This document shows positions 27,807-56,918 of a stretch of DNA of 64,000 nt, piece by piece. This DNA comes from an uncultured Candidatus Saccharibacteria bacterium. Lineage in GTDB: Bacteria > Patescibacteriota > Saccharimonadia > Saccharimonadales > CAIOMD01. How positions within the stretch are numbered: position 1 is the first letter of the stretch; the number at the start of each line of letters is the position of its first letter. The translations under genes and the position numbers were made by a program. Location of the stretch: the NCBI GenBank assembly GCA_964566135.1, contig CAZMHM010000001.1, positions 197,829 to 261,828 on the forward strand. The letters run 5' to 3'. Below the pieces are notes generated by a model. The model saw nothing but the letters and a program-made list of their open reading frames with translations. It did no database searches and had not been told where the DNA came from.

Positions 27807-28433
27807 CTAGCGATTATAGTCAGCAAAATGCATTGTCGTATACGTGCAGCCACTGTTTGTATCTTGCACTTCAGAAACACCAAAGTTCGTATAATCGCCA
27901 ACCATAATTGCATAGTGGGTTGGGCTGGCTAATAATGCATCAAATGCCGCCTGTCGAGTATCGTAACAACGCGCCAAATTCTCGCCAACACGATCAGCTT
28001 TGGGTGATAGCCGCCAGATATAGTCCGAGAAACTCATGCCGTTTGGCGCATAATGCGCCCAATAGTTCTGCAGTACCATATCGTTACCCTTTTGCGTCGC
28101 ACTTGTTGATAAGCGAGCATCAATAAGCAATGCTGACAGCCCTTTGCTGGCACGTAGTGTATTTATCGCACCAAGATAATACTGCTCGGCGTCGGTTCGT
28201 GTGATAACGATCGCAGCAGGAGTTCCGGCCGCGCTTGCCACAGGCGAGGATGCAAGCATTGTGAGTGATGGACTTGTAACTGTAACAATAAAAAGCAATG
28301 CCGCCAATATATACCTGCTAGCGAGTACGGTCTGTTCTATACTACGAGCAAACACACCAGCACTATGGCGAAATTGATTACTATTGCTATTCTTATCAAG
28401 TAAAAATGCCTGCGGCATTAGCACATGATTCAT
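27807..28433 (-). CDS. secreted CAP/SCP (PR-1-like) domain protein
   Basis: AAAGGAGG RBS, signal anchor. C-terminal domain with YWAHYAPNG, GENLARC, LASPTHYAIM. Confidence 0.75.
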   Translation of the reverse strand: MNHVLMPQAFLLDKNSNSNQFRHSAGVFARSIEQTVLASRYILAALLFIVTVTSPSLTMLASSPVASAAGTPAAIVITRTDAEQYYLGAINTLRASKGLSALLIDARLSTSATQKGNDMVLQNYWAHYAPNGMSFSDYIWRLSPKADRVGENLARCYDTRQAAFDALLASPTHYAIMVGDYTNFGVSEVQDTNSGCTYTTMHFADYNR

Positions 28434-28476: not shown

Positions 28477-28654
28477 AAAAACCGGCCAACTACTGACCGG
28501 ACAAATACAAACAGATTGCTGTTGCAGGCCCGGTTTCGCTACTAACTCCCCCAAAAGCCAAGCGACCACATACAGCTTTTAGGATCAACGCTTACACTAC
28601 AAGTACACACGTTACTTATAATCCAACAAGGTCCATAAGTGACTCACACTTAGT
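28477..28654 (-). ncRNA. candidate ~180-nt noncoding leader or sRNA ending in an intrinsic terminator
   Basis: Bounded by the promoter at 28661-28689 and the hairpin CCGGTCAGTAGTTGGCCGG + TTTTTT (28501-28477, minus sense). No ORF of 60 aa or more. Several internal hairpins. Confidence 0.45.
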
Positions 28655-46942: not shown

Positions 46943-47809
46943 ATGCTTATGCTTCATACCACCCCTGATAAAAAGAATTATCCTAAGGTGTTATTACAGC
47001 TTGCGCAACCACCTAAAAATTTGTTTATAGAAAGCAAAAATTGGCCCGAACTAGCCGAAAAACCTATGCTTGCTGTTGTCGGCAGCCGTAAAGTTAGTAC
47101 CTACGGCCGTAGCGTAACCGAACAACTAGTGCGTGGGGTAGTAGCGCGGGGAATAGTGATTGTGAGCGGCCTAGCGCTCGGGCTTGATGCGATAGCGCAC
47201 CAAACCGCACTTGATGCCGGTGGACAAACCATTGCCGTACTACCCAGCGGGCTCGAAGCGATATACCCAAGTACGCACCACCAACTTGCACGCAACATCG
47301 TTGCGCAGGGCGGGGCGCTCATTAGCGAATACCCACCGCACGAAAAAATCGCGTTTAAGGGTAACTTTATTGCCCGAAACAGAATCGTGGCGGGACTTTG
47401 CGCAGCAATACTCATACCAGAAGCTGCCGAAAAAAGCGGTAGTTTGCATACCGCAAACTTTGCTTTAGAGCAAGGCAAAGACGTTTTAGCTGTGCCGGGC
47501 CCAATTACCAGCCCGTTAAGTGCGGGATGCAACAATCTTATTAAAATTGGCGCTACACCCGTTACGAGCCTCGATGATATTTTGGCAGTCTATCAGTTGC
47601 CAGCAACGGCAGGCGAAACACATCACGTACAAGCTGCAAACGCCGCAGAACACGCCATTCTAGAGCTCATCGCCAGCGGCGTAACCGATATCGATACCTT
47701 ACAGACTTCTTCGGGGCTAACCCCACTAGAGTTCCAGCAAACCCTTAGCATGCTAGAGATTACCGGCAAGGTTTCTGCGCAAGGCGGCGGCAGCTGGACG
47801 TTGCGATAA
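46943..47809 (+). CDS. dprA: DNA-processing protein DprA (Smf)
   Basis: AVVGSRKVSTYG, VSGLALGLDAIAHQTALDAGGQTIAVLPSGL, SGSLHTANFALEQGKDVLAVPGPI. Confidence 0.9.
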   Translation: MLMLHTTPDKKNYPKVLLQLAQPPKNLFIESKNWPELAEKPMLAVVGSRKVSTYGRSVTEQLVRGVVARGIVIVSGLALGLDAIAHQTALDAGGQTIAVLPSGLEAIYPSTHHQLARNIVAQGGALISEYPPHEKIAFKGNFIARNRIVAGLCAAILIPEAAEKSGSLHTANFALEQGKDVLAVPGPITSPLSAGCNNLIKIGATPVTSLDDILAVYQLPATAGETHHVQAANAAEHAILELIASGVTDIDTLQTSSGLTPLEFQQTLSMLEITGKVSAQGGGSWTLR

Positions 47810-47814
47810 AGTAA

Positions 47815-47853
47815 ATTTTATGGCATAATTTGCTAGTCTTTGTCGCCCTACAC
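47815..47853 (+). repeat. left copy of a ~40-bp imperfect direct repeat flanking the high-GC cassette
   Basis: ATTTTATGGCATAATTTGCTAGTCTTTGTCGCCCTAC versus the right copy ATTTTATGGCGTAAGCATATAGTCTGTTGTCGTTGTAC. The first 14 nt match 13/14. Confidence 0.6.
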
Positions 47854-47873
47854 TAGGAAAGGAGGGGTGACGG

Positions 47874-48281
47874 ATGCACACTAACAACCCGAACTTGCTG
47901 TCATTTCTGGTGTTTCTTGTCGGAGTGATGTGTGGCGCAATCGCGTTGCTCGCCTTTTCTGAGGGCTTGCAAGAGTGGCGCGCCTACCGCACCCGTCGAG
48001 ACCCCGCAATCCTCTGCGACACTACCCGACGATACGTCGACACCAAAAAGAGTGCACACAAGACTCTTTTCTGGAGCGGCATCGTCAGCTGGGCTGGCTT
48101 TGCAGTCGGTTTTACTGTCGACATCGTCGTTGCCAGCTTGCTTCTCAGCGTTGCGCTCAGCGCGACGATTGGGAAGCTTTGGCAGCAGAGCCGTAGATTG
48201 GTCAACGTCGAAATCCGGCGCACCGAGCTACACGACGACAACGTCCACGAGCGAGACCGCAGGGATGGGGACGGCTCATGA
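47874..48281 (+). CDS. 135-aa 3-TM protein (high-GC cassette gene 1)
   Basis: AAGGAGG lies 8 nt upstream. 62-70% GC in sampled lines. No known motif. Confidence 0.55.
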   Translation: MHTNNPNLLSFLVFLVGVMCGAIALLAFSEGLQEWRAYRTRRDPAILCDTTRRYVDTKKSAHKTLFWSGIVSWAGFAVGFTVDIVVASLLLSVALSATIGKLWQQSRRLVNVEIRRTELHDDNVHERDRRDGDGS

Positions 48282-48574
48282 TCCTGTACAACCAGGTCGT
48301 TCAGGCGCTACTGATATACGGAGGTGGAATCTTCGTGGCAGTCGGCTACTGGATACCCGAAATCACTCGACAACAAGGCATCGAACTTCAGAGCTGGCAA
48401 ACCCTAAGGCTTCACGCCATCAGGATAGTCGCTCTGACATGCTTCCTCGCGGGACTGGCCTCGGCTATCCTGACGACACGATGGTGGATTATCATCATCG
48501 GGCTCGTTGGTGTGGCCGTTACGTTCATCTCGCTTCGACCCAAATACGACGAAGGAGACGATCAGCATGACTGA
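48278..48574 (+). CDS. 98-aa 3-TM protein (cassette gene 2)
   Basis: ATGA overlap with gene 1. Confidence 0.55.
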   Translation: MILYNQVVQALLIYGGGIFVAVGYWIPEITRQQGIELQSWQTLRLHAIRIVALTCFLAGLASAILTTRWWIIIIGLVGVAVTFISLRPKYDEGDDQHD

Positions 48575-48881
48575 CGAAGCGATGTTTCTCTGTGCGGGAA
48601 TCGCATGGGGCATCCTGATGGTGACGCTGACCCTCATGCGCCGCATCGCCAAGGGCGAACAGCGTGGTTGGGCGGCGGCCTTCTGGAGCTTCTTCGGCGC
48701 CGGTGGCTTCGTGCTCGCTGGTGTCAGCTACTACTACCTCGCGACCAGCGGACACGCCAAGTTCGCGTTCTGGACAGCGCTGGGCATGTCCACGTGTTGT
48801 CTGATGATTCTGCTCGCGCAGTATCGCCAGACCATCACGCCGCACGGCAGCAAGAACCAGGCAAGCAACCAGCTGCCGTGA
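48567..48881 (+). CDS. 104-aa 3-TM protein (cassette gene 3)
   Basis: Start at MTDEAMFLC, GAAGGAG upstream, 8-nt overlap with gene 2. Confidence 0.55.
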   Translation: MTDEAMFLCAGIAWGILMVTLTLMRRIAKGEQRGWAAAFWSFFGAGGFVLAGVSYYYLATSGHAKFAFWTALGMSTCCLMILLAQYRQTITPHGSKNQASNQLP

Positions 48882-48961
48882 CTACGTGTCACACCACGTC
48901 CTTTCCGCCTCAGCCTCGCCGCGTTGCCCCCACACAGGGGGCGACCGGCGGGGCTGCTTGC

Positions 48962-49023: not shown

Positions 49024-51321
49024 ATGAGTAAAAAGAATCTAGTAATTGTAGAGTCCCCAGCAAAAGCCAAGACGATTGAGAAATTTTTAGGCAAAGATTA
49101 CACCGTTAAGAGTAGCTTTGGTCACATCCGTGACTTACCTAAAAAGGGCTTAAGCATTGCGCTTGATGATAATTTTAAGCCAGACTACGAAATCCCAGCT
49201 GATAAAAAGAAAGTTGTAACAGAGCTCAAAAAAGAAGCAAAACTTGCCGAAACCGTTTGGCTCGCAAGTGATGAAGACCGCGAAGGGGAGGCTATTGCAT
49301 GGCACTTAGCCGAAGCATTGGGCCTTGATACCAAAAAAACCAAACGTATTGTATTCCACGAAATCACCGAAGGTGCTATTAAGGATGCCATTGCCAATCC
49401 TCGTACCATTGATATTGATTTAGTAAACGCCCAGCAAGCGCGCCGCATACTAGACCGCTTAGTAGGCTACGAACTTTCACCCGTATTATGGAAGAAGGTA
49501 CAACCTGGCCTGAGCGCCGGCCGCGTACAATCTGTTGCAGTACGTTTAATCGTAGAACGCGAGCGCGAAGTTAATGCGTTTACCCCCGAAAGTAGCTTTA
49601 GGGTACAGGCTATCTTTTTGAAAAATGGCGAGGAAGTTCCCGCCGAACTCATTTTGCGTATGCCAGACGAGGCGCATGTAAAAGAGTTTTTAGATGACTG
49701 TATTACCGCCACCTTTACCGTGCACGAAGTAGCGCAAAAGCCAAGCGTGCGCAATCCATCTGCACCATTTACTACCTCTACACTGCAGCAAGAAGCAGCT
49801 CGTAAACTAGGCTTTAGCGTTAAGCAAACTATGACTGTTGCACAGCGTTTGTACGAAAATGGACACATTACCTACATGCGTACCGATAGCACTAACTTAT
49901 CTGGCCAAGCGATTGCTGCCGCTGGTGCCTACATCGAATCGAACTTTGGTAAAAAGTATCATCAAGTACGCCAGTACAAAACCAAGAACTCATCTGCCCA
50001 AGAAGCTCATGAAGCCATTCGTCCAACCAATTTTAACGCGCTTTCAGCCGGCAGTGATGCAACTCAAGAAAAACTGTATCAGCTTATCTGGAAGCGAGCC
50101 CTCGCGAGCCAAATGGCTGCCGCCGAAACAGACCGGACCGAAGCTACCATTAGCATCAGCGGTCGTGCATCAGTATTTATCGCTAAGGGCGAATCACTTA
50201 AGTTTGACGGTTTCCTAAAAGTGTATGGTGGCGGTAAAGAAGATGCCATTTTGCCACATCTTGCAGTTGGTGATGTCTTGCAGCGCCAGACAATTAGCGT
50301 CCACGAAACCTTTAGCCGTCCACCAGCTCGATATTCAGAGGCGAGCCTCGTTAAGGCGCTCGAAGAGCTTGGTATCGGTCGCCCGAGTACCTATGCTCCA
50401 ACAATTAGCACCATCCAGACCCGTGGGTACATCGAAAAGGCTGATTTAGGGGGCATAGAGCGTAATGCGGTGCATTATGAACTTGTAGACGACACTGTTA
50501 CTCGAACCGAAGCTATCGAGGTCTACGGGGCCGACAAGGGCAAATTATTACCAACCCACCTCGCAGACGTTACGACCGACTTTTTAGTTAAATATTTCGA
50601 CACCATTATTAACACTGGATTTACTGCTCAGGCAGAGTTACAACTCGACGAAGTTGCCGAAGGCACGCTCGTTTGGCAAGATGCCATGAAAGAGTTCTAT
50701 AGCCAGTTCCATCCACTGGTCGAAAAGGCCGGTGATGCAACCCGCCAAGAGACTTCACAGGCACGCCTATTAGGTGAAGACCCTAAGACAGGCAAGCCAA
50801 TTTACGCCCGTTTTGGTAAATACGGCCCTATGCTACAACGCGGCGAACCGACCGAAGATAAAACCATTAAGCTTGAGTTTGCACCGATGCCAGCCGGCGT
50901 TCGCCTCGAAAACGTTACGCTCGAAGAAGCTCTTACTATGTTTAGCTTGCCTCGAGTCGTAGGCGAAACAGCTGACGGTAAAGAAATTAAAGCTAACATT
51001 GGCCGCTTTGGACCATACATCCAGATAGATAAGCTCTTTGTCTCTATAAAACCGTTAGACCCATTTAGTATCACCGAGGCAGAAGCACTCGATTTATACA
51101 CCAAAAAACTCGAGGTCCTTGCAAACCGCGAAATTAAAATCTTTGAAAAAGAAAAGATTAGCATCCTTAACGGTCAATACGGACCATACATTACCGATGG
51201 TAAAAAGAATGCACGTATCCCTAAAACGACTGACCCTAAAACAATTACGCTCGAACAAGCGGTAACGATGCTCAAAGACGCCAAACCAGCCCGCAAACGT
51301 ATCGTCCGGCGCAAAAAATAA
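49024..51321 (+). CDS. topA: DNA topoisomerase I (type IA)
   Basis: Toprim LVIVESPAKAKTIEKFLG and ASDEDREGEAIAWH. Active-site region GHITYMRTDS. C-terminal repeats. Confidence 0.95.
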   Translation: MSKKNLVIVESPAKAKTIEKFLGKDYTVKSSFGHIRDLPKKGLSIALDDNFKPDYEIPADKKKVVTELKKEAKLAETVWLASDEDREGEAIAWHLAEALGLDTKKTKRIVFHEITEGAIKDAIANPRTIDIDLVNAQQARRILDRLVGYELSPVLWKKVQPGLSAGRVQSVAVRLIVEREREVNAFTPESSFRVQAIFLKNGEEVPAELILRMPDEAHVKEFLDDCITATFTVHEVAQKPSVRNPSAPFTTSTLQQEAARKLGFSVKQTMTVAQRLYENGHITYMRTDSTNLSGQAIAAAGAYIESNFGKKYHQVRQYKTKNSSAQEAHEAIRPTNFNALSAGSDATQEKLYQLIWKRALASQMAAAETDRTEATISISGRASVFIAKGESLKFDGFLKVYGGGKEDAILPHLAVGDVLQRQTISVHETFSRPPARYSEASLVKALEELGIGRPSTYAPTISTIQTRGYIEKADLGGIERNAVHYELVDDTVTRTEAIEVYGADKGKLLPTHLADVTTDFLVKYFDTIINTGFTAQAELQLDEVAEGTLVWQDAMKEFYSQFHPLVEKAGDATRQETSQARLLGEDPKTGKPIYARFGKYGPMLQRGEPTEDKTIKLEFAPMPAGVRLENVTLEEALTMFSLPRVVGETADGKEIKANIGRFGPYIQIDKLFVSIKPLDPFSITEAEALDLYTKKLEVLANREIKIFEKEKISILNGQYGPYITDGKKNARIPKTTDPKTITLEQAVTMLKDAKPARKRIVRRKK

Positions 51322-51344
51322 ATTATATACCCATACCGTGAGTA

Positions 51345-51373
51345 TAGACATTATATGTTTTTTATGATATAAT
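51345..51373 (+). promoter_or_regulatory. extended -10 promoter only 9 nt from the start codon
   Basis: TAGACA - 17 nt (ending TGA) - TATAAT. ATG at 51383. Confidence 0.5.
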
Positions 51374-51382
51374 AGTTTTATT

Positions 51383-53011
51383 ATGACTACCGGTGAGTTG
51401 GATTCTGGACACTCAATCGCCCAAAGCTATGCTAATTTGTGGCGTTCAATAGAAGCCGCCCCAACACGTGAAAATGCCGAAATTGTTTCTAATGAAGCTG
51501 TAAGATTACTTGGTGAATTACGTGATGGTATCGAAGACAGCGTTGAAAGATCTCTTGTTTTTAGCGCAGACAAGTTCTATAAAGAATTTGATTGGATAAA
51601 CGGTGCCTTTGATGAGCTTGTAACGTATGAAAGCGACTCTGGAATCACCGATGAGGTATTCGAAGCATTCTTTAGTGGCCGTATAAATGGCTACAAAAAT
51701 GCACAACTAACTTGCCAGGCGATTTTAGATAACTTTGAGTTGGGTTGGTTCAAGGATATGTATACCAAGACTGCAGACCAAGATGTGGACATAAAAGCCA
51801 CGCCAGATTGGATACGAAAACTCACCAAACACGATTACATAGATATATTAGATGCGATATTTACTATGATACAAGAAAAGAGTAATCAACCCATAGAATT
51901 TGGTAGTAGTAAATATGATTCACAAGCGTTTGGTGTTATAGCTACAATAATATCTGCAACTGACTTTGCACTCATTTCCGGTAGCCCAGATGTTATCGTC
52001 CACTTAAAGCAAAAGCTATCTGATTTAAATAAAAGTGTTAAGGATCGTTACCGAACTACCCCAAGTACTATTGCCACGGCAGATATGCTATTTCAAAAAA
52101 TCTTAATCGAAAATAAGCCCATCGACCAATCAAAAGAACTTTTACAATTTATTAAAGAAGAAGACCCCCAGGAGTGGCAGGGTGCCCAAGAAATATTAAC
52201 CTTTTATATGTTATCTTCAATGGCATCAATTGCCATACGTAATTATGAATCGTTAGATTACCCGGGACAGCAACGGGTAAAAAATAATATGCTCTTGCGT
52301 TTTCAGCTTACTTTACTTAAACAAATACCAGATGCACCCTTTATTGTTCAAAATTCTTATGAAGCAGAGCTCGAAACTCCCACATCGGTTAAAGATGTTT
52401 TAAAAGAAACTGAGCTTGACTGGACTGTTTTGCCTAAGGGCGAAGATGAACTACGAAAGTCGGCCGAAGAAATTATAGATGCTGCAATGGCACGGTTAGA
52501 AGACGGCGTTGAACCTACGATTGATTTAGAACGGCTAAATATTTTAACCGAAATACGTAGCCGATGGGGCGAAGATATGTGCTATTTTGCCCGAGGCAAA
52601 TTAAAGCGTGGTGCTAGCATTGCTAGCGAAGATGGTACTCGCCAGCCAGATGAATATATTGTATTGGTGCTTCAAGAATACCGCGATGGCAAATTAATAG
52701 AACATGCTGTTGCCGAAAGCCCAATTGCAGGGCCAAATGCCTTGTATGTATGTCGCGCAGATGTATCACCAAAATCATGGCGCGAAGTCTATTCTATCCC
52801 TAAAAAAGATGCACGTGCGCTAGGTGCCCGCAGGGTAAAACATACCTGTGCAGTAGGCGATTCGCTTATAAGCGTAATGGCAAATAAGGTAGAAACGCTT
52901 CTTACGGCAACACCAACAGAATTTGCTACATTACAGTTTAACGGCAGAAACAAGGGTTTTGGTATTCGTATTATTGACCTAGCTGTTCTGCAATCTGCGC
53001 AGCCTAAATAA
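51383..53011 (+). CDS. 542-aa orphan cytoplasmic protein in a low-GC islet
   Basis: Long uninterrupted ORF. No TM segment and no motif I recognise. Sampled lines are 27-42% GC. Confidence 0.6.
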   Translation: MTTGELDSGHSIAQSYANLWRSIEAAPTRENAEIVSNEAVRLLGELRDGIEDSVERSLVFSADKFYKEFDWINGAFDELVTYESDSGITDEVFEAFFSGRINGYKNAQLTCQAILDNFELGWFKDMYTKTADQDVDIKATPDWIRKLTKHDYIDILDAIFTMIQEKSNQPIEFGSSKYDSQAFGVIATIISATDFALISGSPDVIVHLKQKLSDLNKSVKDRYRTTPSTIATADMLFQKILIENKPIDQSKELLQFIKEEDPQEWQGAQEILTFYMLSSMASIAIRNYESLDYPGQQRVKNNMLLRFQLTLLKQIPDAPFIVQNSYEAELETPTSVKDVLKETELDWTVLPKGEDELRKSAEEIIDAAMARLEDGVEPTIDLERLNILTEIRSRWGEDMCYFARGKLKRGASIASEDGTRQPDEYIVLVLQEYRDGKLIEHAVAESPIAGPNALYVCRADVSPKSWREVYSIPKKDARALGARRVKHTCAVGDSLISVMANKVETLLTATPTEFATLQFNGRNKGFGIRIIDLAVLQSAQPK

Positions 53012-53103
53012 TCAAATTTGTTACTATATTTTATCGTCGTGGCCCCTTGTCAAAACGCTTAAGCTAGTACATGATAGCTTTTGATGCAGTATATATGCAC
53101 AAG

Positions 53104-53128
53104 TGTCTATTTTGTGCTAAAATAGACA
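53104..53128. repeat. 10-bp perfect inverted repeat (operator or hairpin)
   Basis: TGTCTATTTT-GTGCT-AAAATAGACA. Confidence 0.6.
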
Positions 53129-53143
53129 TAGATAGCCATATTG

Positions 53144-53172
53144 TTGACTAACAATAAGATTTATTGTAAAAT
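53144..53172 (+). promoter_or_regulatory. sigma70-type promoter
   Basis: TTGACT - 17 nt - TAAAAT, upstream of 53230. Confidence 0.5.
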
Positions 53173-53229
53173 ATATTAAGTATTACCATTTCTAGTGGTA
53201 CACCGTATTTGTAAGGAGATTCCGAACCC

Positions 53230-54285
53230 ATGGCAACTAAAACACCTACTATCGCAAGCAGTTCATTAGATTTGGACGTCGTTTTAAAGGGTGTTTTGGG
53301 TTCTATCGAACGAGAACGTGAACGAGAGATTGTTTCGCGTCGTTTTGGCCTGTATGACCGCAAGGAAACTCTCGAGCAAATTGGTGAGCTCTTGGGCATT
53401 ACCCGCGAACGCGTTCGTCAGCTCGAAAAGGTTGTCGTAACACGCCTTAAAAGCACTGCAGCAAGCGGTAATTTGCCACATATTAAAGAAGTTGAAACAG
53501 TAGTTCTTGAAATTTTAGCCCAGAACGGCAATGCAATGCGCGTGAGCGAACTTGCCGGCTTGCTAACCAAGCAGGGAAGCAAGATAGATCAAGCTCGTAT
53601 TTCGTTTTTAGCTGAACTTTCACCAGAGATTAGTGTTATAGAAGAAAGCGACCATTTTTATAACGCCGTTGGTACCCGTAAGGTCCACGACGAAAAGAAG
53701 ATGCGCGAACTTACTAATAAAATTGTTGAAGCAGTCAAGAAAATTGGCAAACCTACTGATATCAAGAGCATCGCTAACGGTGTTGGCGACGAAGACGTTA
53801 GCCATGTAAGCGCGCTGGCAAGTATTTCTAAGCACCTTGCAGAGCTCAACGATCGTTGGGGTCTTACAAAATGGCCAATGGTTAACCCAAAGAACATCCG
53901 CGACAAAATCTATGTTATCTTGCACGAAAACGGCAAGCACATGCACTTTAATGAAATTGCCGAATCTATCCGTATTTCTGACTTTAAGCGCAAAGACGTT
54001 ACTACCCAAGCAATTCACAACGAACTTATAAAAGATAAGCGCTTTGTTCTTATCGGTCGTGGTATTTATGCACTCCAAGAATGGGGCTATAAAAAGGGTA
54101 CTGTAGCCGACATGATAACAGAGGTACTTACAGAAGCTGGCGAGCCACTTCACCGTGATGAAATCGTAAAGCGCGTGCTAAAATCACGTCATGTCAAAGA
54201 AACTACTATTCTTTTGAACCTACAAGGCAAACCACAATTCAAGCGCGTTGCAAAAGCAACCTACACACTTGCTGAAACCGCCTAA
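53230..54285 (+). CDS. sigma-70 region-4-like HTH protein with C-terminal HARE-HTH-like domain
   Basis: TLEQIGELLGITRERVRQLEKVVVTRLK (region 4.2-like). C-terminal MHFNEIAESI...VLIGRGIYALQEWGY resembles a HARE-HTH domain. Confidence 0.7.
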   Translation: MATKTPTIASSSLDLDVVLKGVLGSIEREREREIVSRRFGLYDRKETLEQIGELLGITRERVRQLEKVVVTRLKSTAASGNLPHIKEVETVVLEILAQNGNAMRVSELAGLLTKQGSKIDQARISFLAELSPEISVIEESDHFYNAVGTRKVHDEKKMRELTNKIVEAVKKIGKPTDIKSIANGVGDEDVSHVSALASISKHLAELNDRWGLTKWPMVNPKNIRDKIYVILHENGKHMHFNEIAESIRISDFKRKDVTTQAIHNELIKDKRFVLIGRGIYALQEWGYKKGTVADMITEVLTEAGEPLHRDEIVKRVLKSRHVKETTILLNLQGKPQFKRVAKATYTLAETA

Positions 54286-54356: not shown

Positions 54357-56918
54357 ATGGCAACTAATTCTTCTACTCACACGCTTTTACTCCTTGAGAT
54401 TCCTCGTACCAACGACAAGAAAGAACTTGCGGCCGAGCAGATGTTTGCCGCGCTCCACGGCATATTAAAGCCCCGCCGCGAACTATTAGGCGGAGCCCAA
54501 GATCATATTAGTTTTGAAATTGCCGCTATTGGTCAGCGTATTAAGTTTTATGTATGGCTTCCAAAAAACCTTCAGTCTTTTGTCGAAGGACAGATTTACG
54601 CTCAATACCCAACAGCACAGATTTCAGAATTAGAAGAAGATTACGCGCAGCGCCCTATGCCACAACCTGTAATCTACACTACCGAACTCACTCTTACCGA
54701 TCACGAAACAATCCCCATCAAGACATTCCCAAGCTTTGAGGTTGACCCCTTGGCGGCCATTACCGCTACCTTTGCCAAACTAGAGCAACCCAACGAAGAA
54801 ATGTGGATTCAAATGATTGTACGGCCAATTAGCGATGATTGGCACAAACAAAGCTCACGCATGGTGAGTCGCATTACGTCAGGGCGGGGCAGTTGGGGCA
54901 GTGCTGGTATCGCCTCTGGAATAAGCTATGTTGGGCAGGCTTTTGGGGCACTTGTACGGCCTCCGTCAGAAACAACAACTGCCTATGTGCCGTCCGAACG
55001 CGAAAAGACCCGTATAACTGCTATAGAAGAGAAGAGCCGAAAACTTGGATACCAGGTTAAAATTCGTATTGTATACGCAGGTAACGACCAAGCAACTGCG
55101 CGCATGCGTATGCAAGCAATGGTCGGCACCTTTAAGCAGTTTAATACCACCAATCTCAACGGCTTCCAGAGTAAGTTCGCAAGTTTTGAGCCTTCAAAAT
55201 TAGCGCCATACGCCGCACGCACGTTCCTCGACAAGGGGTTTATCTTAAATATCGAAGAAGTCGCTAGCGTATATCACTTACCACACACCAGCGTAGAAAC
55301 ACCAAATATCGTTTGGGCAACCACCAAAACTGCCGAACCACCCGCCACGTTGCCGTCGTTTGGTCAATATCCCGAAAATGAGCTCAGCCTGTATGGCACG
55401 ACCAATTTTAGAGGTAGTAATACAATGTTTGGCTTATTACGCGCTGACCGCGGACGTCATGTGTATATTTTAGGTCAAACTGGTACCGGTAAATCAGGTT
55501 TGCTCGAGCTGCTCACACTTTCTGATATTTATTATGACCAGGGCATGGCCGTTATCGACCCACACGGCGATTACGCCACTAGTATCATGCGCTACATACC
55601 CGAACGTCGCATAAAGGACGTTATTTACTTTAACCCGGCAGATGTCGACTACCCAATTGGCTTTAACCCACTCGAAGTTACCGATTCGGTCAGTAAAGGC
55701 CAGGTGAGTAGTGAGCTTGTAGGCGTGCTCAAGCGCATGTTTGATAGCTGGGGGCCACGGCTCGAATATATCCTTCGATTTACTATTTTAGCCCTGTTGG
55801 ACTACCCAAATGCAACCATGCTTGATATTACCCGCATGCTTACCGAAAAGCGCTTTCGTGATGATGTTATTAGCTATATTGACGATCCGGTCGTTAAAAA
55901 CTTCTGGGTTACCGAATTTGCCAGCTGGAACGAAAAATTTGCATCAGAGGCCGTTGCGCCGGTGCTTAACAAGGTTGGCGCGTTTACCGCTAACCCGATT
56001 ATTCGTAATATCATTGGTCAGCCAAAAAGTACCTTTAGCATTAGACGCGCCATGGATGAGGGCAAGATTATTGTTGTTAACCTCTCCCGTGGCCTTGTCG
56101 GCGAAGATAACGCTGCTATCTTAGGCGCCATGTTTGTAACCAAAATACAATTAGCCGCCATGAGCCGTGCTGATATTCCACGGCTTGAAGACAGGCGCCC
56201 ATTCTATCTATATGTCGACGAATTCCAGAACTTTGCCACTGATAGTTTTGCGGTTATTTTAAGCGAAGCGCGTAAATATGCGCTTAATCTAACGATTGCC
56301 AACCAATACATCTCGCAGATGGAAGAAACGGTTCGTGGCGCCGTTTTTGGCAACGTCGGTACAATGATTACATTCCGCGTAAGCCCAGATGATAGCCCAT
56401 TCTTAAGCAAGTACTATGAGCCGCAGTTTGAGGCAGCAGATCTATCGAACTTCCATAATCGTCACTTTGTGACGAGCATGAGTATTAATGGCGAAAAAGC
56501 AGCCGCGTTCTCTGGTATAACGTTAAATATACCCCAGCCCCAGCACAGTAATATCGATGAAATCATCGCCCATTCGCGCCGCGAATACGCAGCCGACTTA
56601 CATACAGTTGAAGATATGATTAGAGCCGCAACACTGCCCCAGCAGCACGCTGCTGCTGCGCCACAACAGGCTCAACAGCAGCAATCAAGACAATCACACG
56701 ATGGCAAGAGTCATACCATCGTTGCACCATTACCTATTGCTCGCCCATATCCGCCCCAAGAGCAGCCCAAGATAGTCGAAACTGAATCCCAAAAACGTCG
56801 ACGTCGCCGCAAACGTGCAGCACAAGCACAAGAGCAGGCGACACCAAGGGTAGCGCCACCACCGCCACCAGTCCACAACCAACCCGATGATGATTCGGGC
56901 GTCCTAAAGATACGCTAA
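54357..56918 (+). CDS. VirD4/TraD-like (type IV coupling protein family) P-loop ATPase with CPR-type N-terminal domain and Q/R-rich tail
   Basis: Walker A GQTGTGKSGLLE, DPHGDY, Walker B LYVDEFQNF, TIANQY. C-terminal QQQ and RRRRRKR tracts. Confidence 0.75.
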   Translation: MATNSSTHTLLLLEIPRTNDKKELAAEQMFAALHGILKPRRELLGGAQDHISFEIAAIGQRIKFYVWLPKNLQSFVEGQIYAQYPTAQISELEEDYAQRPMPQPVIYTTELTLTDHETIPIKTFPSFEVDPLAAITATFAKLEQPNEEMWIQMIVRPISDDWHKQSSRMVSRITSGRGSWGSAGIASGISYVGQAFGALVRPPSETTTAYVPSEREKTRITAIEEKSRKLGYQVKIRIVYAGNDQATARMRMQAMVGTFKQFNTTNLNGFQSKFASFEPSKLAPYAARTFLDKGFILNIEEVASVYHLPHTSVETPNIVWATTKTAEPPATLPSFGQYPENELSLYGTTNFRGSNTMFGLLRADRGRHVYILGQTGTGKSGLLELLTLSDIYYDQGMAVIDPHGDYATSIMRYIPERRIKDVIYFNPADVDYPIGFNPLEVTDSVSKGQVSSELVGVLKRMFDSWGPRLEYILRFTILALLDYPNATMLDITRMLTEKRFRDDVISYIDDPVVKNFWVTEFASWNEKFASEAVAPVLNKVGAFTANPIIRNIIGQPKSTFSIRRAMDEGKIIVVNLSRGLVGEDNAAILGAMFVTKIQLAAMSRADIPRLEDRRPFYLYVDEFQNFATDSFAVILSEARKYALNLTIANQYISQMEETVRGAVFGNVGTMITFRVSPDDSPFLSKYYEPQFEAADLSNFHNRHFVTSMSINGEKAAAFSGITLNIPQPQHSNIDEIIAHSRREYAADLHTVEDMIRAATLPQQHAAAAPQQAQQQQSRQSHDGKSHTIVAPLPIARPYPPQEQPKIVETESQKRRRRRKRAAQAQEQATPRVAPPPPPVHNQPDDDSGVLKIR

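What the first reader, a model, noticed from the sequence alone, without database searches (positions are those of the whole stretch)
51345..53229. Low-GC islet with a 542-aa orphan expressed from a near-leaderless extended -10 promoter
Seen in sequence:
- The ORF 51383..53011 sits between topA and the sigma-r4-like gene.
- Sampled lines are 27-42% GC, below the local baseline.
- The protein is soluble and has no motif I can place.
- Its promoter (TAGACA-17-TGATATAAT) ends 9 nt before the ATG and there is no SD, implying a leaderless or very short leader mRNA.
- A 218-bp spacer follows, containing a perfect 10-bp inverted repeat (53104-53128).

Inference: single large AT-rich orphans between conserved genes are often defence/abortive-infection or mobile-element cargo genes. 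No catalytic motif supports a specific function.
Basis: inference. Interest (0 to 1): 0.55.

Follow-up and report, generated by a model that had tools for sequence, protein, structure and literature searches.

The report
Single-gene insertion of unknown function after topA
A 1.7-kb piece of DNA carrying one self-contained gene has been dropped between two core genes of a Saccharibacteria (TM7) genome; its protein belongs to an uncharacterised family, also found on mycobacterial plasmids, that may work in phage or plasmid conflict, though this is unproven.

Summary

**The insertion.** ORF 51383-53011 is the only gene in a 1,724-bp insertion (51322-53045). A related genome (L093) has an exact empty site: 1 nt separates the topA stop codon from the conserved region upstream of the sigma-r4 gene. 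Three other relatives carry unrelated DNA in the same slot.

**Composition.** The insert has 39.7% GC against 45.8% for the window, which is 3 SD below 35 other windows. Its GC3 of 31.7% is the lowest of 43 ORFs.

**Promoter.** TAGACA-17-TGATATAAT ends 9 nt before the ATG and there is no Shine-Dalgarno (SD) ribosome-binding site. About 10 of 12 Saccharimonadia homologues have the same geometry.

**Protein family.** About 400 cluster representatives share a roughly 180-aa C-terminal domain behind a variable helical N-terminus. Pfam, NCBIfam, PHROGs, PADLOC, the PDB (sequence and fold) and BFVD gave no significant match.

**Distribution.** Distant members lie on Mycobacteriales plasmids and islands. 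Some are next to type I restriction-modification (R-M), Pycsar, toxin-antitoxin or relaxase genes. Most Saccharimonadia copies have housekeeping neighbours.

**Inverted repeat.** The 10-bp repeat is real but belongs to the conserved upstream region of the sigma-r4 gene.

**Verdict.** Mobile cargo is shown. A defence or conflict role is plausible but unproven.

The parts
51322..53045 (+). The islet: a 1,724-bp insertion (39.7% GC) holding a promoter, one ORF and a 34-bp tail. No integrase, target-site duplication or terminal repeats.
   Evidence: blastn against relative L093: homology ends at 51321 (L093 9819, the topA stop) and resumes at 53046 (L093 9821). L094 breaks at the same points around an unrelated 1,649-bp insert. 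GC. No boundary repeats.
51345..51373 (+). Sigma-70-type promoter TAGACA-17-(TGA)TATAAT with an extended -10. It ends 9 nt before the ATG and no SD follows, so the mRNA is predicted to be leaderless or nearly so.
   Evidence: Sequence. Scan gave 11/12 matches with TG. About 10 of 12 Saccharimonadia homologues have the same geometry, with the -10 ending 6-10 nt before the ATG. The transcription start site was not measured.
51383..53011 (+). ORF542, member of an uncharacterised protein family (about 400 cluster representatives at 50% identity).
   Evidence: No match in Pfam, NCBIfam, PHROGs or PADLOC.
51383..52399 (+). Variable, all-helical N-terminal region (residues 1-339). Residues 140-295 are modelled confidently; residues 49-140 and 298-343 have low confidence.
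   Evidence: Alignment A1: no column conserved across the family before residue 345, and lengths vary from 230 to 800 aa. AlphaFold2 model.
52415..52942 (+). Conserved C-terminal alpha/beta domain (residues about 345-520). R384 and R458 are invariant in 93 diverse members. D381, E440, S446, P447, W466, K474 and R483 are nearly invariant.
   Evidence: Alignments A1, A2 and A4. AlphaFold2 model of the domain alone: pLDDT 86, pTM 0.82. No significant Foldseek match in the PDB or BFVD. No PDB sequence match.
53046..53229 (+). Conserved upstream region of the sigma-r4/HARE-HTH gene, not part of the islet. It holds promoter-like sites (53096-53123 and 53144-53172) and an SD-like AAGGAG.
   Evidence: 76-78% nucleotide identity to L093, L094 and L095 starting at 53046. 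Promoter scan. Sequences.
53104..53128 (.). Perfect 10-bp inverted repeat TGTCTATTTT-GTGCT-AAAATAGACA, a candidate operator or 5' hairpin of the sigma-r4 gene.
   Evidence: Sequence. Chance 0.36% in shuffles. The 7-bp core CTATTTT/AAAATAG is kept in L094 and is 6/7 in L093, both of which lack ORF542. Partly kept in L007.
49024..51321 (+). topA, the left flank. The insertion begins immediately after its TAA stop codon.
   Evidence: Pfam Topoisom_bac, Toprim and Toprim_C_rpt. Synteny in L093, L094, L007 and L008.
53230..54285 (+). Sigma-70 region 4 + HARE-HTH gene, the right flank. It is a core gene of Saccharibacteria.
   Evidence: Pfam and NCBIfam. At least 7,998 homologues at E<=1e-30.

Best explanation
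ORF542 is the sole cargo of a 1,724-bp insertion that sits exactly between the topA stop codon and the conserved upstream region of the sigma-r4 gene. Related Saccharimonadia genomes leave this slot empty or fill it with unrelated DNA.

The insert is a self-contained expression cassette. A near-consensus extended -10 promoter abuts the ATG, so the mRNA is predicted to be leaderless and to need no host-specific ribosome-binding site. This suits a gene that moves between genomes.

It has no integrase and no terminal repeats. I therefore infer that it arrived by DNA uptake followed by homologous recombination through the conserved flanks (the genome encodes DprA). This step is inferred, not shown.

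The protein is cytoplasmic and has two parts. The N-terminal region is fast-evolving and all-helical, and I infer that it acts as a recognition or sensor module. The C-terminal alpha/beta domain of about 180 aa is conserved and has no detectable relative of known structure or function. It carries invariant Arg, Lys, Glu and Ser residues. In distant relatives it is fused to RNase III plus a dsRNA-binding motif, or to IF2_N/helix-turn-helix (HTH) modules, so I infer that it binds or acts on nucleic acid.

The most likely role is a stand-alone conflict protein, either defence against phage or plasmids or a counter-defence or establishment factor. This rests on the patchy, non-syntenic distribution, on plasmid carriage in Mycobacteriales, and on repeated adjacency to R-M, Pycsar, toxin-antitoxin and transposon genes.

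Shown: the insertion, the cassette anatomy, the family and its distribution. Inferred: the leaderless transcript, the route of acquisition, nucleic-acid targeting and the conflict role.
For: - **Empty site and alternative cargo.** Searches cover L093 and L094; searches cover L007 and L008.
- **Composition.** The insert has 39.7% GC, 3 SD below the rest of the window. GC3 is 31.7%, the lowest of 43 ORFs, and is uniform across the gene. Family genes elsewhere match their host GC (difference -3 to +6 points), so the deviation is specific to this copy.
- **No close homologue.** Nothing above 39% identity exists among 5.8 billion proteins, although many relatives with sigma-r4 at 85-92% identity are sampled.
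- **No synteny.** About 16 family loci show no shared context.
- **Promoter geometry.** Conserved in the family.
- **Plasmid carriage.** The window's C-domain hits seven Mycobacteriales plasmids by tblastn, at E 7e-7 to 7e-14.
- **Conflict-type neighbours.** Type I R-M directly upstream in M. gilvum and M. alvei. Pycsar effector and cyclase on either side in M. farcinogenes. NYN and a restriction endonuclease on pDF02. RES-Xre in R. pyridinivorans. MutH plus two methyltransferases, MazE/PIN and a DDE transposase in CPR loci.
- **Domain fusions.** RNase III plus dsrm in P0160; IF2_N plus an AbiEi-type HTH in P0162.
- **Confident model with no match.**
Against: - No hit to any PADLOC model for eight family members.
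- None found on viral contigs.
- At six further Saccharimonadia loci the 28 neighbours are housekeeping genes (GroEL, FtsH, TilS, FolD, FtsEX, PGI). The only PADLOC hits there are generic ATPase cross-matches.
- R-M systems are common in these genomes, so adjacency at 4-5 of 16 loci is weak evidence without a background rate.
- No catalytic motif could be assigned. The acidic pair at D423/E424 is lost in some distant members.
- The leaderless geometry is also present at about nine other genes in the window, so it is not special to mobile genes here.
- The closest available relatives are only 72-77% identical in flanking DNA. Loss from relatives, rather than gain here, cannot be excluded by parsimony alone.
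Confidence: 0.42

Rival explanations
1. A non-conflict accessory protein: a lineage-specific nucleic-acid-binding regulator or nucleoid/RNA-associated factor. It is dispensable and patchily retained, and it happens to sit in a variable slot.
For: - Most Saccharimonadia copies lie among housekeeping genes.
- Family genes are compositionally at home in most genomes.
- The promoter is strong and looks constitutive.
- HTH and IF2_N fusions occur.
- No defence model matches.
Against: - No synteny between loci, apart from L101 and L105 which share a context.
- Plasmid and island carriage in Actinobacteria beside R-M and Pycsar.
- A hypervariable N-terminus is unusual for a regulator.
- No close orthologue exists in any sampled relative.
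Confidence: 0.28
2. A translocated effector or transfer-associated protein. It would be exported through the type IV secretion (T4SS)-like machinery into the actinobacterial host, or into a conjugation recipient as an establishment or anti-restriction factor.
For: - A VirD4/TraD-like coupling ATPase lies two genes downstream (54357-56918).
- Mycobacterial plasmid copies sit between the conjugal-transfer and ESX clusters or near MobF relaxases.
- A basic R-x-x-R tail follows the conserved domain in most members.
- The family is shared between Saccharibacteria and Actinobacteria. That Actinobacteria are the hosts of cultivated Saccharibacteria is my own knowledge.
Against: - The coupling-ATPase gene is core and is present in L093, which lacks ORF542, so the adjacency is incidental.
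- Other Saccharimonadia copies are not near secretion genes.
- No recognised secretion signal was tested.
Confidence: 0.12
3. An ancestral gene at this position that was lost or replaced in the sampled relatives. The low GC would reflect amino-acid and codon bias rather than foreign origin.
For: - The nearest relatives are still only 72-77% identical in flanking DNA.
- The C-domain's overall GC (44%) is near the genome mean.
Against: - GC3 is uniformly low (31.5-31.9%) in both halves.
- Four relatives hold four different states at the slot.
- The L093 empty site is clean to 1 nt, with no remnant.
- tblastn finds no relic in L007 or L008.
- The nearest homologue anywhere is 39% identical.
Confidence: 0.06

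Closest known systems
Variable cargo slots ('hotspots') between conserved core genes, such as the defence and accessory-gene hotspots described in E. coli, Pseudomonas and Vibrio (named from my own knowledge, not tested against a catalogue)
   Same: The boundaries are fixed between two core genes (topA and sigma-r4). Related genomes show an empty site, ORF542, or unrelated cargo. The cargo has atypical composition.
   Different: The islet holds a single gene and is only 1.7 kb. It has no integrase, tRNA, target-site duplication or terminal repeats. None of the alternative cargos matches a known defence gene.
LdgA and DdgA, Patescibacteria-restricted anti-phage proteins recovered by functional metagenomic selection (PMC12366544)
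   Same: The paper describes them as almost exclusive to Patescibacteria, with no sequence or structural similarity to proteins of known function. LdgA is a single-gene defence that works in E. coli from a small insert. ORF542 is a single gene with its own sigma-70-type promoter and likewise has no match.
   Different: The paper says they lack homologues in other clades, whereas the ORF542 family has distant members in Actinobacteria.
TnsE C-terminal domain (PDB 5d17) and E2/UEV-like folds (UFC1, Vps23 UEV)
   Same: These are the best, though non-significant, Foldseek matches to the C-terminal domain. They share a helix, a four-stranded meander and further helices in general outline.
   Different: E-values are 0.09 or worse, TM-scores 0.24-0.40 and rmsd 7-14 A. 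There is no conserved catalytic Cys: C457 of the window protein is F, Y or L elsewhere. These are not family members.
Leaderless genes of mobile elements and phages, such as lambda cI and transposon-borne resistance genes (named from my own knowledge)
   Same: The -10 element ends 6-10 nt from the start codon and there is no SD. The geometry is conserved across family members in different genomes.
   Different: The transcription start site is not measured. The same geometry occurs at about 9 of 50 other genes in this window, so it may be a habit of the genome rather than a mark of mobility.

Membership tests
Known anti-phage defence systems (PADLOC-DB v2.0.0) | Significant match of the protein to a defence-system HMM | tested here: not met
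   No families at E<=1 for ORF542. None at E<=0.1 for seven other family members, including actinobacterial ones.
Known anti-phage defence systems (PADLOC-DB v2.0.0) | Consistent location in defence islands, next to known defence genes | tested here: inconclusive
   Adjacent to R-M, Pycsar, toxin-antitoxin or transposon genes at about 8 of 23 loci, mostly actinobacterial. Neighbours are housekeeping at the rest. No background rate was computed.
Any curated protein family (Pfam-A, NCBIfam, PHROGs) | Match above or near the curated cut-off | tested here: not met
   No Pfam or PHROGs hit and only noise in NCBIfam (15 bits against a cut-off of 587). No recurrent Pfam family in 93 diverse members.
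Genomic islet / insertion in a core-gene hotspot | An empty site in a related genome with conserved flanks | tested here: met
   In L093 the topA stop is followed after 1 nt by the sequence that resumes at window 53046. Flanks are 72-77% identical over 2.4 and 3.5 kb.
Genomic islet / insertion in a core-gene hotspot | Different cargo at the same site in other genomes | tested here: met
   L094 has an unrelated 1,649-bp insert with 142-aa and 60-aa ORFs. L008 has a 220-aa ORF. L007 has a 93-aa membrane ORF.
Genomic islet / insertion in a core-gene hotspot | Atypical base composition | tested here: met
   39.7% GC against 45.8%, z = -3.0, below all 35 other windows. GC3 is the lowest of 43 ORFs.
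Transposon or integrative element | Integrase or transposase gene, terminal inverted repeats, target-site duplication | tested here: not met
   The insert holds one ORF and no recombinase. No direct or inverted repeat pairs the two boundaries.
Leaderless mRNA | Promoter -10 element placed so that transcription starts at or within a few nt of the start codon, with no SD | tested here: met
   The TATAAT ends 9 nt before the ATG and no SD is present. The same holds in about 10 of 12 Saccharimonadia homologues.
Leaderless mRNA | Mapped transcription start site at the start codon | not testable with these tools
   Needs 5' RACE or differential RNA-seq.
PD-(D/E)xK nuclease fold | alpha-beta-beta-beta-alpha-beta core with conserved D ... 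(D/E)xK residues | tested here: not met
   A 'PDEY ... EHAVAE' pattern suggested it. However, no nuclease appears among the Foldseek matches, there is no Lys at the xK position, and D423/E424 is replaced (IR, NE) in distant members.
E2/UBC/UEV-like fold; TnsE C-terminal domain | Significant structural superposition; a catalytic Cys for active E2 enzymes | tested here: not met
   Best E-value 0.09 and TM-score 0.33-0.40 for TnsE; TM below 0.3 for UFC1. No conserved Cys.
LdgA / DdgA (PMC12366544) | Sequence similarity to the published defence proteins | not testable with these tools
   No sequences are given in the text and no supplements are held. They are deposited under PRJNA1262520 and Zenodo 15758252.

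The most novel reading that the evidence does not exclude
The ORF542 family is a new single-protein immune, or counter-immune, module. A previously unseen effector fold would be coupled to a hypervariable helical sensor. It would spread as a promoter-plus-ORF leaderless cassette by recombination into core-gene slots. It would also be exchanged between Saccharibacteria and the plasmids of Actinobacteria, the phylum that hosts them as epibionts.
Probability: 0.25. Interest if true: 0.75.

Novelty: new variant of a known kind. Interest (0 to 1): 0.5.

Why it matters
Very few defence or conflict systems have been recognised in Patescibacteria/CPR genomes, according to PMC12366544. Their accessory genes are almost all 'hypothetical'.

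This finding provides three things:
- a cleanly delimited, single-gene insertion with an empty-site control;
- a protein family of about 400 clusters with a confidently modelled domain that matches nothing known;
- an unexpected distribution that links Saccharimonadia chromosomes with Mycobacteriales conjugative plasmids.

If the family proves to be an immune or anti-immune module, it would add a new effector fold. It would also give a tractable example of gene flow between epibionts and the phylum of their hosts.

The cassette can be tested directly. It carries its own sigma-70-type promoter and needs no ribosome-binding site.

If the family turns out to be a mundane accessory protein, the result still documents a recombination hotspot after topA in this lineage.

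Tried and rejected
- **Family libraries.** Pfam, NCBIfam, PHROGs and PADLOC on ORF542 gave nothing.
- **PDB by sequence.** Profiles of the full-length family and of the C-domain returned only noise, such as RapA, uL30 and designed helical repeats.
- **Fold search.** The full-length model against the PDB was dominated by helical-repeat noise. The C-domain model gave nothing significant against the PDB or BFVD.
- **PD-(D/E)xK nuclease reading.** Considered because of 'PDEY...EHAVAE'. Rejected on fold search and on loss of the acidic residues in distant members.
- **HEPN reading.** Considered because of R483-x3-H487. Rejected because the spacing is wrong, the segment is a beta strand, and H487 is F in distant members.
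- **E2/UEV and TnsE resemblance.** Too weak to use.
- **Second word-indexed homologue search with the C-domain profile.** It returned only short fragments and added nothing.
- **Viral contigs.** No relatives.
- **Metagenome contig scan.** Only 10 loci.
- **Rfam.** Nothing in the islet or spacer and nothing in L094's alternative insert.
- **Boundary repeats.** A search for a target-site duplication or terminal inverted repeats at the insert boundaries found none.
- **LdgA/DdgA sequences.** Not held in the library.
- **Literature on leaderless genes in Saccharibacteria.** Nothing relevant found.
- **Family-wide low GC.** Rejected as an explanation, because other members match their host genome's GC.
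Full report
**1. The observation**

On its left is topA (49024-51321; Topoisom_bac, Toprim and Toprim_C_rpt domains). On its right is a gene with sigma-70 region 4 and HARE-HTH domains (53230-54285), followed by a VirD4/TraD-like coupling ATPase.

The GC dip is real when computed properly.
- The ORF has 40.5% GC and the finding's span has 39.0%, against 45.7% for the window.
- The lowest 1.6-kb sliding window in the whole 64 kb lies inside this ORF.
- The delimited insert (39.7%) is 3.0 SD below the mean of 35 non-overlapping windows and below every one of them.
- GC3 is 31.7%, the lowest of 43 ORFs of at least 200 aa. It is equally low in both halves of the gene, at 31.9% and 31.5%.

The promoter is TAGACA (51345-50), a 17-nt spacer, then TATAAT (51368-73) preceded by TGA. 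It matches 11 of 12 consensus positions and ends 9 nt before the ATG. No purine-rich SD is present.

The 10-bp perfect inverted repeat at 53104-13 / 53119-28 exists. It arises in only 0.36% of shuffles of the spacer.

**2. The protein is not an orphan**

A word-indexed search found 41 homologues besides the protein itself. All are unnamed or labelled Candidatus Saccharimonadales. An exhaustive profile search with the C-terminal 200 residues found 397 cluster representatives at 50% identity, of which 123 scored E<=1e-30.

In every hit the conserved stretch is at the C-terminus, behind 230-800 residues of unalignable sequence. Across 93 diverse members two arginines are invariant (R384 and R458 in window numbering). 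D381, E440, S446, P447, W466, K474 and R483 are nearly invariant.

The start codon is supported by homologues that begin MTTGE, MTSGE or similar.

**3. The protein matches nothing known**

Pfam, NCBIfam, PHROGs and PADLOC give nothing for ORF542. PADLOC gives nothing for seven other members. Pfam shows no recurrent hit in 93 members. Profile searches of PDB sequences return only noise.

AlphaFold2 with the family alignment models the parts as follows.
- Residues 140-295 form a helical domain at pLDDT around 85.
- Residues 345-520 form a compact alpha/beta domain at pLDDT around 90.
- Modelled alone, the C-domain reaches pLDDT 86 and pTM 0.82.

Foldseek finds no significant match in the PDB or in BFVD. 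The best are the TnsE C-terminal domain (E 0.09, TM 0.33-0.40) and E2/UEV-like folds (TM below 0.3).

Two rare fusions hint at nucleic acid as the substrate. P0160 carries RNase III and a dsRNA-binding motif. P0162 carries IF2_N and a weakly matching AbiEi-type HTH motif (E 0.0011, below Pfam's cut-off).

**4. It is an insertion in a variable slot**

I searched for relatives of the neighbouring sigma-r4 gene, which is a core Saccharibacteria gene with at least 7,998 hits. This found organisms at 85-92% protein identity.

*Empty site.* L093 (89% identity) has the gene order dprA, small ORFs, topA, sigma-r4, coupling ATPase, then MurG, FtsW, MraY and PBP. The window matches it by homology at dprA, topA, sigma-r4 and the ATPase. 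In L093, topA is followed by sigma-r4 after only 181 bp. blastn places the break precisely. Homology ends at window 51321, the topA stop (L093 9819), and resumes at 53046 (L093 9821). One nucleotide in L093 therefore stands where 1,724 bp stand in the window.

*Other cargo in the same slot.*
- L094 (also 89%) breaks at the same two points around an unrelated 1,649-bp insert with 142-aa and 60-aa ORFs.
- L008, a more distant relative, holds a 220-aa ORF there.
- L007, also more distant, holds a 93-aa membrane ORF.
- None of these alternative cargos matches Pfam or PADLOC.

No recombinase, target-site duplication or terminal repeat marks the window's insert. The best ORF542 homologue anywhere is only 39% identical, although close relatives are sampled. 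This fits acquisition from an unsampled donor. Family genes in 13 other loci differ from their surroundings by only -3 to +6 GC points, so the low GC is a property of this copy and not of the family.

**5. The spacer belongs to the neighbour**

From 53046 onwards the sequence is conserved in L093, L094 and L095 at 76-78% identity. This block includes the inverted repeat. Its 7-bp core is kept in L094 and is 6/7 in L093. It also includes the TTGACT-17-TAAAAT promoter-like site and the AAGGAG before the sigma-r4 start codon. The repeat is therefore a candidate operator or 5' hairpin of the sigma-r4 gene, not part of the islet.

**6. The leaderless arrangement**

Of 12 Saccharimonadia family members whose start region I could read, about 10 have a good -35/-10 pair whose -10 ends 6-10 nt from the ATG, with no SD. 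Examples are TTGACT-17-TATAGT-7-ATG and TTGACC-17-TATAAT-8-ATG. The two actinobacterial members have ordinary SD sequences.

Within the window, 12 of 50 genes have a TAnnnT hexamer 5-11 nt upstream of the start, against 12.6% at random positions. SD-like motifs occur at 15 of 50 genes, against 6% at random. Leaderless starts therefore seem a normal option in this genome. What stands out is their near-universality in this family, which makes each copy an autonomous promoter-plus-ORF unit. The transcription start site itself is not measured.

**7. Where the family lives**

Saccharimonadia loci are not syntenic with one another. The exception is L101 and L105, which share a GroEL ... family ... 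PGI context.

*Saccharimonadia neighbours.*
- Several loci have conflict-type or mobile neighbours: MutH plus two DNA methyltransferases, MazE/PIN, a DDE transposase and Mrr_cat three genes away.
- Six further loci have only housekeeping neighbours, and the only PADLOC hits there are ATPase cross-matches.

*Actinobacterial members.* The window's C-domain hits seven Mycobacteriales plasmids directly by tblastn, at E 7e-7 to 7e-14.
- In M. gilvum Spyr1 the gene lies directly after a type I R-M system and before Tn7-like TniQ/TniB genes.
- On the M. alvei plasmid it also lies directly after a type I R-M system.
- In M. farcinogenes it lies between a Pycsar effector and its cyclase.
- On Rhodococcus pDF02 an NYN-domain gene is upstream and a restriction endonuclease is nearby.
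- In R. pyridinivorans it lies beside RES-Xre and a large helicase.
- On pCBMA213_2 and pMYCCH.01 it lies near MobF relaxases; on pMYCCH.01 an IS1380 transposase gene sits directly upstream of a short (242-aa) copy.
- In M. paragordonae the match is split into four tblastn pieces under three small annotated ORFs, suggesting a disrupted gene, and it lies between the conjugal-transfer and ESX clusters.
- No member was found on viral contigs.

**8. Interpretation**

Shown:
- a single-gene cassette inserted at a recombination-prone slot;
- a widespread but patchy, uncharacterised two-part protein family;
- plasmid and island carriage in Actinobacteria.

Inferred:
- The mRNA is leaderless.
- The cassette arrived by DNA uptake and homologous recombination through the conserved flanks. 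The genome encodes DprA and the insert has no recombinase.
- The conserved domain acts on nucleic acid. This rests on the invariant Arg and Lys residues and on the RNase III and HTH fusions.
- The protein works in genetic conflict, as defence or as a counter-defence or establishment factor, with the variable helical part providing specificity.

I put about 0.4 on the conflict role. About 0.3 goes to a non-conflict accessory nucleic-acid-binding role, about 0.1 to a translocated effector, and little to an ancestral gene lost elsewhere.

**9. Comparison with what is known**

The phenomenon is of a familiar kind: variable cargo between fixed core genes. Here the cargo is one gene, with no mobility genes and with a domain that matches nothing.

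A functional metagenomics study reports two Patescibacteria-restricted defence proteins, LdgA and DdgA, that have no sequence or structural similarity to known proteins (PMC12366544). That comparison is the cheapest decisive test.

**10. Verdict**

The 'defence' part remains a reasonable but untested hypothesis.

Interest is moderate (0.5). The structure of the locus is of a known type, while the protein family is uncharacterised by every library searched and can be tested directly.

Noticed in passing
window 47554-48954: A second variable islet lies between dprA and topA. It has 57% GC against the window's 45.7% and no nucleotide homology to L093 or L094. It encodes small membrane-type ORFs (47874-48281, 135 aa, GC3 0.70; 48278-48574, 98 aa) with no Pfam match. 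The high GC suggests a high-GC donor.
   Followed up: partly
window 28520-28604 (-): Rfam match to the c-di-GMP-II-GAG riboswitch at 40.4 bits, just above the gathering score of 40. It lies upstream of the 208-aa ORF 27807-28433 (-).
   Followed up: no
L007 12833-12886 (+): A hammerhead type III-like motif sits in the topA/sigma-r4 slot of a related genome. It has CUGAUGA, a perfect GCCG/CGGC stem II, GAAA, and plausible stems I and III. The Rfam score is only 22.4 bits against a gathering score of 48.5 (E 0.05 in 1 kb).
   Followed up: partly
L094 8230-8830: The alternative insert in the same slot of another relative contains about 600 bp of GC-rich, structured-looking sequence. It has no ORF of note and no Rfam match.
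   Followed up: partly
window 53050-53084: An imperfect inverted repeat, TCAAAACGCT...AGCTTTTGA, lies immediately to the right of the insertion boundary. It is conserved in L093 and L094. It is a candidate topA terminator or a conserved element that marks the slot boundary.
   Followed up: no
window, several gene starts (e.g. 12431, 14408-, 18081, 20421, 23183, 25424-, 43213): About nine other genes have a TAnnnT -10-like hexamer ending 5-10 nt before the start codon and no SD. Leaderless mRNAs may therefore be common in this Saccharimonadia genome. Only 15 of 50 genes show an SD-like motif.
   Followed up: partly
window 49024-51321 (topA) versus genome collection: After two Saccharimonadia genomes (63-66% identity), the next-best topA relatives returned were almost all Bacteroidota, at 51-57%.
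   Followed up: no
L087 (M. gilvum Spyr1 CP002385.1 5457514-5479679); L106 (Rhodococcus pDF02): In Actinobacteria an NYN-domain gene recurs upstream of the family gene. In Mycolicibacterium a type I R-M system lies between them. A second IF2_N-domain gene follows in M. gilvum. This may be a multi-gene system in that branch.
   Followed up: partly
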